From NCBI GenBank assembly GCA_951406725.2, contig OX597826.1, positions 66,340,001-66,404,000 on the forward strand: a DNA stretch of 64,000 bases, written 5' to 3'. Source of the DNA: Octopus vulgaris (taxonomy: Eukaryota). The position numbers were made by a program, and so were the translations under genes. The notes below the pieces were generated by a model. The model saw nothing but the letters and a program-made list of their open reading frames with translations. It had not been told where the DNA came from and made no database searches. This document shows, one piece after another, positions 4,420-63,196 of the stretch; position 1 is the first letter of the stretch; the number at the start of each line of letters is the position of its first letter.

Positions 4420-4804
4420 GTGGAGGCGCAATGGCCCAATGGTTAGGGCAGTGGACTCGCGGTCGTAGGATCGCGGTTTCGATTCCCAGACCGGGCGTTG
4501 TGAGTGTTTATTGAGCGAAAACACCTAAAAGCTCCACGAGGCTCCGGCAGGGGATGGTGGTGATCCCTGCTGTACTCTTTCACCACAACTTTCTCTCACT
4601 CTTACTTCCTGTTTCTGTTGTGCCTGTATTTCAAAGGGCCGGCCTTGTCACTCTCTGTGTCACGCTGAATATCCCCGAGAACTACGTTAAGGGTACACGT
4701 GTCTGTGGAGTGCTCAGCCACTTGCACGTTAATTTCACGAGCAGGCTGTTCCGTTGATCGGATCAACCGGAACCCTCATCGTCGTAACCGACGGAGTGCT
4801 TCCA
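4420..4804 (+). mobile_element. SINE family C (tRNA-derived head), full length
   Basis: Head TGGCCCAATGGTTAGG...GGTTTCGATTCC; near-identical to 52335-52720; imperfect TSD ATAAGTAGCCT/ATAAATAGCCT. Confidence 0.9.
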
Positions 4805-33190: not shown

Positions 33191-33763
33191 AAATATATCA
33201 TAACAGACTTCTGAATAAAATCAGGTATACAATTCTATATTTCTGAAATGAGGATTTTTATATATTATAGTGTATATATTATAGTATTAGACAGAGTGGT
33301 GTAAATTTCTGATGAAGTCACTAAGGTGTATCTCAGAAAAAGTCACTAAGGTATATCACAAGACACCTGAAGAAGGCTGGAGCAGACAATAGCCAAAGCG
33401 TAGTCAAAACAACAACTAAGACACCAGCCCTATTAATACCATATGAAAATATAAAAAAAAATATGAAAATCAGGTGTAAATAGCGGGGAAGGCAGCAGAG
33501 GAATAGCGGTGTGTTCGGCCAAGCAAATATTTCATCTGTCCGAAGCATGATTACGCAAAAACATTTTCGATGGGTTGGGCATACTGTGTGAATGCGGGAT
33601 ATGACTGTGTGATAAAAGGAACTAACATTGCAACCACGTGGTGCCAGGTCCAGTCCCACAGCGTGGCACTTAGGGCAAGTGTCTTCTAGTACAGCATTCA
33701 CGAGCCTACTAACGGCTTGTGAGTGAATTTGATGTACGGGAACTTTGCTGAAGCCCTTCCCAT

Positions 33764-55049: not shown

Positions 55050-55498
55050 ATAGCACATCCCTACGACGACAACGACTACGACCACCACCACCACCACCAC
55101 CATCACCATTTAAGCCTGTCTGTTTTTATTGTAGTAGTAAACCATAGAGAGAGCTATGGTAATGTGCAGAGAAGACAAAGTGAGTTAGTGAAAGTGAGAG
55201 AGTGTGAGATGGGTCTCATAGCTGCTGACGGTAAATTTCATTTCTCCATTTGACCAATGTCTTTAGTAGCTGCCTTGCTTGTGATCATGGTTCTAGCGTT
55301 CCGCTCCCTAACTGATGGTAGCTGTCTCCGACTCGAGTTGTCCCTCATTAACTAATTGATTGACTTGTTACGAACCGACTAACTGAGTTATCACCAAGGG
55401 ATTAACTGAGCCTTCACCAAGTGACTGAGTTGTCACCAAAAGACAGTAATTTCCCTTTGTTTTAACGGTCATTTTCATAGTATTTTTTTCGATGGCCC

Positions 55499-55559
55499 GA
55501 TAACTGAAGAGATGTCGGCGTGGGTTCCCGCCCCGACATCCGAAACTCGGAGTTTTATC
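55499..55559 (+). ncRNA. Type I hammerhead ribozyme, canonical core
   Basis: gataa-CTGAAGA-gatgtcgg...ccgacatc-c-GAAA-ctc.g.gag-TT-ttatc; 5-bp stem I, strong GC stem II, GUU triplet. Confidence 0.82.
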
Positions 55560-55680
55560 ATGGCTACCGAATAATTGCCACATATTATATTTACAAATAA
55601 ATTCCTCTATTTACATAATATCGAGGTCTCTTTCATTGTTTTGTTGTCTTGCCATTTCTATCAATATATATATATATATA

Positions 55681-62370: not shown

Positions 62371-62695
62371 TTATTTACATTATTTACATTTGACGGATAT
62401 TTGTCTTCATCTTGTTTGTTGTTAAAACAATATTTCGGCTGGTATACTCTCCATCCTTCATCAGGTGTCCTGGGGAAATTTCGAACCTGGATTGTCATTC
62501 CTAAGGTATTCTTCCGATGTTATTATTATTCAGGTAATTACCTGGAATCGAACTCGGAATCTTGGGGTTTGTTGCCTGCGCTCTTAACCATTACGCCATA
62601 TGCCGAAACGTTGTGTTAACAAGAAACAAGATGAGGACAAATATCCGTCAAGTGTTAATAATGTACATAATTCCCCATCTCTCAAATATAGAACT
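62371..62695 (-). mobile_element. tRNA-headed SINE-like element ending in a hammerhead, with an inverted copy of its 3' end
   Basis: Minus strand: A box TGGCGTAATGG and B box GAGTTCGATTCC, then acac-CTGATGA-agg...gcc-GAAA (62468-62425); 62377-62439 is inverted at 62602-62666. Confidence 0.72.
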
Positions 62696-62700
62696 ATCGT

Positions 62701-62928
62701 GGCACTCCGTCGGTTACGTCGACTAGGGTTCCAGTTGAACTGATCAACGGAACAGACTGCTCGTGAAATTAACGTGCAAGTGGCTGAGCACTCCACAGAC
62801 ACGTGTACCCTTATCGTAGTTCTCGGGGAGATTCAGCGTGACGCAGAGTGTGAAAAGACTGGCCCTTTGAAATATAGGTACAACAGAAACAGGGGGAAAG
62901 AGAGAAAGTTGTGGTGAAAGAGTACAGC
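62701..62928 (-). mobile_element. SINE family C, 3' half
   Basis: Matches the tail of the 4420 copy. Confidence 0.85.
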
Positions 62929-62946
62929 ATATATATATATACATAT

Positions 62947-63124: not shown

Positions 63125-63196
63125 TGATTCGGGCGGGAGTCGAACCTGTATCGACTGCTTGGAAGGCAACCATGTTAACAATTACACCACCGTCGC
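63125..63196 (-). pseudogene. tRNA-Gly(TCC) pseudogene
   Basis: GCGACGGTGGTGTAATTGTTAACATGGTTGCCTTCCAAGCAGTCGATACAGGTTCGACTCCCGCCCGAATCA: Gly anticodon arm TGC-CTTCCAA-GCA intact, but acceptor and T stems mispaired and D-loop GG lost. Confidence 0.85.

What the first reader, a model, noticed from the sequence alone, without database searches (positions are those of the whole stretch)
62371..62695. Chimera of a tRNA-type Pol III promoter and a hammerhead ribozyme, with a Penelope-style inverted end
Seen on the minus strand: GGCATATGGCGTAATGGTTAAGAGC...GAGTTCGATTCC head, a short (AAT)n linker, then acac-CTGATGA-aggatgg..ccagcc-GAAA-(ta)TT-g. The inverted copy at 62602 preserves the undamaged 3' half GCC-GAAA-CG-TT-GTGT, which completes stem I with ACAC. 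The inversion starts on a GCC overlap with the head. A related decayed motif lies at 33363. Inference: a SINE with its own promoter that uses self-cleavage and Penelope machinery rather than a LINE tail. It resembles the schistosome Sm-alpha tRNA/HHR repeats.
Basis: partly seen in the sequence, partly recalled or inferred. Interest (0 to 1): 0.8.

Follow-up and report, generated by a model that had tools for sequence, protein, structure and literature searches.

The report
Penelope end-repeat with captured tRNA promoter
This repeat is the short end-piece of a Penelope-type jumping gene, inserted as an inverted pair, and that end-piece carries a tRNA-derived promoter sequence ahead of its hammerhead ribozyme motif, which likely sets where the element's RNA starts and so likely explains why one protein-coding element left thousands of SINE-like copies.

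Summary
The tRNA-Arg-like head, (AAT)n, minimal hammerhead and tail together form the pseudo-LTR (pLTR) of an autonomous Penelope-like element (RT plus GIY-YIG-type ORF, ~830 codons). All 7 long copies reaching the ORF stop carry the head ~32 nt later, and the tail runs in frame into the ORF start. The window holds a decayed, inverted solo-pLTR pair. The family has 5,899 exact hammerhead 22-mers. It shows the Penelope signature: head-to-head arms (35 of 58 insertions), tail on one arm (26 of 35), 9-15-bp target duplications (8 of 29), almost no poly-A. What looks new is the tRNA-type A/B-box promoter inside an autonomous Penelope pLTR. Most short copies stop within 7 nt of tRNA +1 (exact-match counts drop about fivefold there), an older sister family keeps both boxes, and the 2.65-kb unit lacks T4 terminators (weak, p 0.01-0.19). 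Likely the transcript starts at this promoter and internal reverse-transcription starts copy its 5' end. Pol III use and cleavage are untested, and RNA data were inconclusive. I found no description in the papers searched. Verdict: new variant of a known kind.

The parts
62371..62604 (-). Main arm: solo pLTR of the Penelope-like element, from tRNA +2 to the first (tail-less) 3' end
   Evidence: 89.6% to the family majority and 77-79% to the 3' pLTRs of four long copies
62531..62604 (-). tRNA-Arg(ACG)-like head
   Evidence: 51 of 75 aligned columns identical to an own-genome tRNA-Arg gene for the family majority; score 69 vs at most 49 in 500 shuffles
62588..62598 (-). A box TGGCGTAATGG
   Evidence: read from sequence; fits the consensus quoted in PMC8969392
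62544..62555 (-). B box GAGTTCGATTCC
   Evidence: read from sequence
62520..62530 (-). (AAT)n linker, very variable in length among copies
62496..62498 (-). ATG in frame with the Penelope ORF (likely its start)
   Evidence: frame continues through hammerhead and tail into the RT ORF in long copies
62424..62469 (-). Minimal type I hammerhead motif, damaged in this copy; predicted cut between 62429 and 62428
   Evidence: features match the PLE min-HHR of PMC4209133
62602..62695 (+). Inverted, 5'-truncated arm starting on a 3-nt GCC overlap with the head
   Evidence: 94.7% to the family majority
62664..62695 (+). ~32-bp Penelope 'tail', present on this arm only
   Evidence: tail on exactly one arm in 26 of 35 inverted insertions
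33357..33418 (+). Decayed hammerhead segment of an older sister family (same ribozyme-tail module; a tail-like inverted piece lies just upstream, near 33233-33268)

Best explanation
The feature is an inverted pair of pseudo-LTRs left by a Penelope-like retrotransposon whose pseudo-LTR contains a tRNA-Arg-derived A/B-box promoter upstream of a minimal hammerhead, and this promoter likely sets the start of the element's RNA. Shown: the order ORF stop, ~32 nt, tRNA head, (AAT)n, in-frame ATG, hammerhead, tail, ORF continuation; two preferred 3' ends 30 nt apart; head-to-head arms; target duplications in a subset; 5' ends piled at tRNA -7 to +1. Inferred: transcription, likely by Pol III, starts just before the head and runs into the ORF. 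The element's RT-endonuclease then nicks both target strands and starts reverse transcription internally at two sites about 125 and 154 nt into the ORF, as shown for the anole Poseidon element. It copies back to the RNA's 5' end, giving two short arms, one with the tail, that meet head to head by microhomology (GCC here) or fold-back. Full-length copies would come from the same starts at a downstream pLTR. The hammerhead likely cleaves some transcripts as a dimer. Solo pLTRs like this one are likely dead ends; mini-elements that keep the ORF's first 50-270 nt between two pLTRs are the likely non-autonomous propagators.
For: 7 of 11 long copies reach the ORF stop and all 7 carry the head next; the other 4 end earlier. 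The majority frame is open for 834 codons through hammerhead and tail. RVT_1 scores above cut-off on a natural ORF; the C-terminal piece is 34% identical to the GIY-YIG-bearing part of P0093. Of 101 arms, 36 end at unit positions 245-254 and 37 at 275-279. 35 of 58 insertions are head to head, 2 contain a tail-to-tail junction. Duplications of 9-15 bp flank 8 of 29 inverted insertions vs 8 of 812 controls. All this matches Pen2a in PMC3846280 and the two internal RT starts in PMC11167929. Start at the head: exact matches are 5,899 (hammerhead), 5,148 (head) and 919 (22-mer ending ~17 nt upstream of the head); 4 of 42 head ends continue into the body; 49 of 52 lose the upstream match within 7 nt (two of these are miscalled). 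An older family ~70-79% identical keeps both boxes with a different spacer. Cleavage: 14 of 43 5' ends in positions 145-230 fall at 193-200, the predicted cut being 194/195 (scan p 0.001), and the one clearly polymorphic core position beyond CpG decay is the free N7 (T 76, A 21 of 101).
Against: No direct evidence of Pol III use: the RNA reads laid fell equally on both strands, came from a coded organism not shown to be this genome's species, and mostly ran on into unrelated sequence. A 13 kcal/mol hairpin spans the head's 5' edge and could stop or fold back RT without any promoter; pLTRs with palindromic 5' edges and no tRNA are known (PMC3846280). A TATA-like TTTATAA lies at -36 to -30 in both families, so Pol II could start at the same place. 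Fold-back duplicates heads and inflates the head count. A GTTAAC palindrome lies at the 193-200 cluster, that sample mixes selection schemes, and one locus counts twice. Only 12 of 39 arms keep the catalytic core, and the core is no better conserved among copies than its surroundings (0.92 vs 0.94). Pfam did not hit the endonuclease directly.
Confidence: 0.62

Rival explanations
1. Same Penelope pLTR, but the tRNA-derived segment is a passenger. The element is transcribed by Pol II (TATA-like motif at about -33, or read-through), and short copies end at the head because RT stalls or folds back at the hairpin there.
For: Hairpin of -13.4 kcal/mol across the boundary; many copies carry fold-back palindromes; other pLTRs have TATA/Inr motifs and 5' palindromes (PMC3846280); the ORF must be translated, which favours a capped RNA.
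Against: Both boxes fit consensus in two families ~70-79% identical while the spacer between them changed. Ends lie past the hairpin loop at -7 to +1, not at its 3' foot. Most copies lack the TATA-like motif, so only an internal promoter would be self-contained.
Confidence: 0.23
2. One reading: a self-propagating SINE, transcribed by Pol III from dispersed short copies and mobilised in trans by Penelope proteins, with the hammerhead processing its RNA.
For: Short copies outnumber ORF-end copies about tenfold by corrected counts and have intact boxes; pLTR sequences sufficed for trans-mobilisation of a host gene in PMC3846280; mini-elements with shared deletion junctions did spread.
Against: The head is already part of the autonomous element, so no separate SINE origin is needed. 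Solo copies end at ORF nt ~125 or ~154, while the anole element needed the first 172 ORF nt on its RNA (PMC11167929). I did not test for solo-specific subfamilies.
Confidence: 0.12
3. Chance nesting of a tRNA-like SINE and a Penelope fragment at this locus.
For: The locus is flanked by other repeats.
Against: Thousands of colinear copies; the 4 head-only insertions share no alternative body.
Confidence: 0.01

Closest known systems
Penelope/Poseidon-clade PLEs (Pen2a_Av, PMC3846280; PAc, PMC11167929)
   Same: One ~830-codon RT + C-terminal endonuclease ORF that starts inside the pLTR; hammerhead in the pLTR; inverted 5'-truncated pLTR; ~31-bp tail on one arm; 8-10-bp target duplications (9-15 here); palindromes at inverted junctions.
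   Different: The pLTR here begins with a tRNA-derived A/B-box segment; Pen2a is described with TATA/Inr motifs. The endonuclease motif reads VYSI...LYKG.
Minimal hammerheads of metazoan PLEs (PMC4209133)
   Same: Extra base between A9 and stem II, G10.1-C11.1 pair, 6-bp stem II, 5-bp stem I, palindromic CG with no loop 3.
   Different: Nothing substantial; activity not tested here.
TRIMp3: Cassandra, Helenus, Ajax (PMC10886601)
   Same: A small-RNA-derived Pol III promoter placed inside the terminal repeat of a retroelement.
   Different: Those are non-autonomous LTR elements, and that paper expects autonomous partners to use Pol II. Here the segment is in the pLTR of the autonomous element itself.
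Schistosome Sm-alpha/Sj-alpha (review PMC6765202; PMC8490949)
   Same: Pol III-type promoter followed by a type I hammerhead.
   Different: Canonical hammerhead, tandem multimers cut to monomers; no Penelope ORF, inverted arms or tail in the passages read.
Animal non-LTR retrozymes (PMC7229834; bioRxiv 10.64898/2026.07.22.740005)
   Same: Non-autonomous pLTR-derived units with a type I hammerhead; the sister family and mini-elements here resemble them.
   Different: Retrozymes are tandem arrays; these copies are mostly dispersed and inverted. The bioRxiv text has no 'tRNA' or 'promoter' hit.
Octopus tRNA-derived SINEs OK/OR1/OR2 (Ohshima and Okada 1994; citation seen only, family names recalled)
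   Same: Possibly the same repeat under an older name, if this genome is an octopus (my inference; no call names it).
   Different: Could not compare: paper and SINEBase supplements not readable.

Membership tests
EN+ Penelope-like element | Single ORF with RT and C-terminal GIY-YIG endonuclease | tested here: met
   RVT_1 39.7 bits over cut-off 29.6; C-terminus 34% to the GIY-YIG region of P0093, no direct Pfam hit; all natural copies examined are broken, majority frame open 834 codons
EN+ Penelope-like element | pLTRs flanking the ORF and containing the ORF start | tested here: met
   L260, L261, L263 have pLTR pieces at both ends; frame runs from pLTR into ORF
EN+ Penelope-like element | Inverted 5'-truncated pLTR and 30-40-bp tail on one end | tested here: met
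   35 of 58 head to head; 26 of 35 with one tail
EN+ Penelope-like element | Minimal hammerhead in the pLTR | tested here: met
   motif and stems in the majority; cleavage itself not assayed
Penelope/Poseidon clade (vs Neptune, Nematis) | No Zn-finger-like motif between RT and endonuclease | tested here: met
   absent by eye in natural C-terminal ORFs, present in the L080 family; criterion from PMC8557442
Penelope/Poseidon clade (vs Neptune, Nematis) | RT phylogeny with named reference elements | tested here: inconclusive
   quick, unfinished tree of 20 rows separates it from L080/L065 but holds no named PLE
tRNA-derived SINE | tRNA-derived head with A and B boxes at the 5' end | tested here: met
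   only two tRNA types were compared
tRNA-derived SINE | 3' tail of LINE origin with poly-A or simple repeat | tested here: not met
   3' part is a Penelope pLTR; A6+ after 1 of 88 arms
tRNA-derived SINE | Non-autonomous family separate from its partner | tested here: not met
   the whole unit is part of the autonomous element
tRNA-derived SINE | Transcribed by Pol III | not testable with these tools
   RNA reads unstranded and dominated by read-through
Sm-alpha / non-LTR retrozyme | Head-to-tail arrays of hammerhead units | tested here: not met
   4 of 58 insertions have same-orientation neighbours; one 5-copy array in the full-length sample (L002)

The most novel reading that the evidence does not exclude
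An autonomous, protein-coding retrotransposon transcribed end to end by RNA polymerase III from a captured tRNA promoter. The 2.65-kb unit has no run of four T on its sense strand (0 vs 2.7 expected in the ORF after synonymous shuffling, p 0.03; p 0.01-0.19 under Markov nulls; eight ORF pieces of the genome's other PLEs show no such lack). Its uncapped RNA would be processed by the hammerhead and translated without a cap, possibly as a circle, since the ATG lies 70 nt before the cut. Its 5' end would seed SINE-like copies, a direct route from Penelope to SINE-like repeats.
Probability: 0.25. Interest if true: 0.85.

Novelty: new variant of a known kind. Interest (0 to 1): 0.62.

Why it matters
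How Penelope elements are transcribed, and why their insertions are short, inverted and tailed, is still largely open. Here the 5' ends of thousands of copies coincide with a recognisable tRNA +1, which gives a precise, testable prediction of the transcription start and polymerase. The two 3'-end clusters support in genomic copies the internal-initiation mechanism shown in vitro for one lizard element, and the cluster at the predicted cut hints at in vivo hammerhead cleavage, which that study could not see in RNA-seq. It also warns annotators that a large 'tRNA-SINE' family (roughly 23,000 arms) can be the pLTR of a Penelope element.

Tried and rejected
Rfam and ARAGORN do not recognise the head or the minimal hammerhead. 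A Pfam GIY-YIG search of the genome returned other PLE families; none of the 50 loci taken from its 148 matches shares the ribozyme-tail module behind its ORF, so the dominant 781-aa family was rejected as partner. The real partner was missed by that search and was found through the sequence beyond the tail. No autonomous master was found behind 20 of 41 sister-family hits. Sequencing runs: no indexed holder is on record as RNA; laying two raw RNA runs and two contig sets gave unstranded depth that follows copy number and no usable start site, which is no evidence either way. No solved structure matched the C-terminal piece. DNA around relatives in other species could not be fetched, so the spread of the tRNA head beyond this genome is untested. 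Three look-ups of earlier scan findings returned nothing. Ten paper searches showed no description of a tRNA-derived promoter in a PLE pLTR; Repbase/Dfam, subscription journals, Ohshima and Okada 1994, Lunse 2017 and the SINEBase supplements were not readable.

Full report
Observation. The minus-strand arm 62604-62371 has an A box, B box, (AAT)n, a minimal type I hammerhead motif and ~55 nt beyond it. The plus-strand arm 62602-62695 starts on a shared GCC and ends in a 32-bp extension that the main arm lacks. The main-arm ribozyme is damaged. Rfam and ARAGORN call neither part.

Family. A DNA search gave 5,155 candidates (40 scored). Exact counts are 5,899 for a hammerhead 22-mer, 1,657 for a CpG-bearing head 24-mer and 5,148 for a CpG-free head 20-mer, each with 0 in the reversed control. 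With 25 of 99 independent arms matching the 22-mer exactly, this gives roughly 23,000 arms. I annotated the first 30 loci of each pattern list, dropping one duplicate from each. 25 of 29 head-picked insertions hold the hammerhead; 19 of 29 hammerhead-picked ones hold the head. 35 of 58 are head-to-head inverted, and 26 of those 35 have the tail on exactly one arm. Of 101 arms, 36 end at unit positions 245-254 and 37 at 275-279. Duplications of 9-15 bp flank 8 of 29 inverted insertions with two long arms (control 8 of 812) and 0 of 22 single-orientation ones; an A6 run follows 1 of 88 arms. I see no duplication at the window's own insertion, which abuts other repeats.

Head. The family majority aligns to an own-genome tRNA-Arg(ACG) gene at 51 of 75 columns (score 69; at most 49 in 500 shuffles; 51 for the window's other tRNA-like sequence). 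I looked for that isotype on purpose, so 'closest' was tested against one other tRNA only.

Partner. The genome's GIY-YIG hits did not share the module. In L030 and L099 the tail continues into a conserved stretch. Searching with it led to an ORF that runs in frame out of the pLTR. Of 11 long copies fetched, 7 reach the stop codon and all 7 carry the tRNA head next, followed by all or part of the (AAT)n, hammerhead and tail; 4 end earlier. The majority frame is open for 834 codons and the head starts 32 nt after the stop. A natural 465-aa piece hits RVT_1 and 897 proteins at E<=1e-30, the best at 60-72% identity and unnamed. The C-terminal piece has no Pfam or PDB hit but aligns at 34% with the GIY-YIG region of P0093. 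No Zn-finger linker precedes the endonuclease, which points to Penelope/Poseidon; a quick tree held no named references. So the finding is a solo, inverted pLTR pair, not a separate SINE.

Where short copies stop. A 22-mer ending ~17 nt upstream of tRNA +1 has 919 matches, against 5,148 about 60 nt downstream. 4 of 42 head ends continue into the body. 49 of 52 heads that keep +1 lose the upstream match within 7 nt, two of them miscalled; 11 more start inside the head. PMC11167929 (parts 1-2 of 4 read) shows that a Poseidon protein cuts and extends both strands and starts reverse transcription at two internal sites early in the ORF, which define the tail. It needs the first 172 ORF nt, and hammerhead cleavage is protein-assisted and dispensable in vitro. 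Here the two 3' clusters lie ~125 and ~154 nt after the ATG. On that mechanism the 5' edge of short copies is the 5' end of the RNA, so the transcript likely starts at the tRNA-type promoter (inference). Against this stand a hairpin across the boundary, a TATA-like motif at -36 to -30, and pLTRs with palindromic edges and no tRNA in PMC3846280 (passages).

Sister family. The 33363 motif leads to older copies with the same ribozyme-tail module. In 20 of 41 hits examined, many join ~50 nt of ORF start to the ORF's last codons and then a related head; none has RT or endonuclease upstream. Identity to the main element is ~70-79%. Both boxes fit consensus although the spacer is ~10 nt longer. The head therefore predates the split and looks selected (inference). 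Younger mini-elements with shared deletion junctions also occur.

Hammerhead. The majority has all features listed for PLE minimal hammerheads in PMC4209133 (parts 1-2 of 4). N7 varies (T 76, A 21 of 101). 14 of 43 5' ends in positions 145-230 fall at 193-200, next to the predicted cut at 194/195 (scan p 0.001), with the caveats of a local palindrome, mixed sampling and one locus counted twice. Only 12 of 39 arms keep the core, and the core is not better kept than its surroundings among copies.

Pol III terminators. The majority has no T4 run in 2,831 nt; the ORF expectation is 2.7 (p 0.03), Markov nulls give p 0.01-0.19, G4 runs are absent too, eight control ORF pieces show no lack, and 4 of 10 natural copies have none. 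This is weak.

RNA. No indexed holder is on record as RNA. Two raw runs mapped equally to both strands, and 66-71% of reads ran on into unlike sequence. Inconclusive.

Literature. Ten searches showed no tRNA-derived promoter in a PLE pLTR. Seen as passages only: PMC8557442, PMC13282606, PMC7229834, PMC10886601, PMC6765202, PMC3531059, PMC8969392, PMC8490949, PMC3846280. For bioRxiv 2026.07.22.740005 I read part 1 of 5 and a term search. Not readable: Ohshima and Okada 1994, Lunse 2017, SINEBase supplements, Repbase/Dfam; the repeat may already have a name there.

Verdict. Known Penelope architecture, with a previously unseen (in what I could read) tRNA-derived promoter in the autonomous element's pLTR. 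New variant of a known kind; interest 0.62. The boldest reading, a wholly Pol III-transcribed autonomous retroelement, has probability about 0.25.

Noticed in passing
window 55493-55560 (+): A second, unrelated hammerhead-like motif: CTGAAGA, 8-bp stem II, GAAA, palindromic stem III, 5-bp stem I; fold z-score only -1.8.
   Followed up: partly
window 63125-63196 (-): tRNA-like sequence over Rfam's gathering score (35.5 bits), not called by ARAGORN; looks Gly-type by eye.
   Followed up: no
L080 1245-4600 and L035-L060: Abundant PLE family with intact 781-aa RT + GIY-YIG frames, a Cys-rich linker (Neptune-like) and a hammerhead variant with a U3-A8 core about 0.3-1.1 kb after the ORF.
   Followed up: partly
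L002 920-1969: Five head-to-tail copies of the tail-less unit at ~240-bp period, retrozyme-like.
   Followed up: no
L199-L214: Several mini-element subfamilies, pLTR + ~120 nt of ORF start + pLTR, each sharing one deletion junction among dispersed copies.
   Followed up: partly
L175, L184, L187, L189: A third group with the same hammerhead-tail module but a different upstream linker; not traced.
   Followed up: no
P0007 residues 1-60: A distant relative's protein begins with a stretch resembling the hammerhead-spanning N-terminus here (PKR motif), suggesting its ORF also runs through the ribozyme; DNA not seen.
   Followed up: no
window 62696-62930: Another dispersed repeat abuts the tail; a 17-mer of it recurs at 4783 and 52340.
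   Followed up: no
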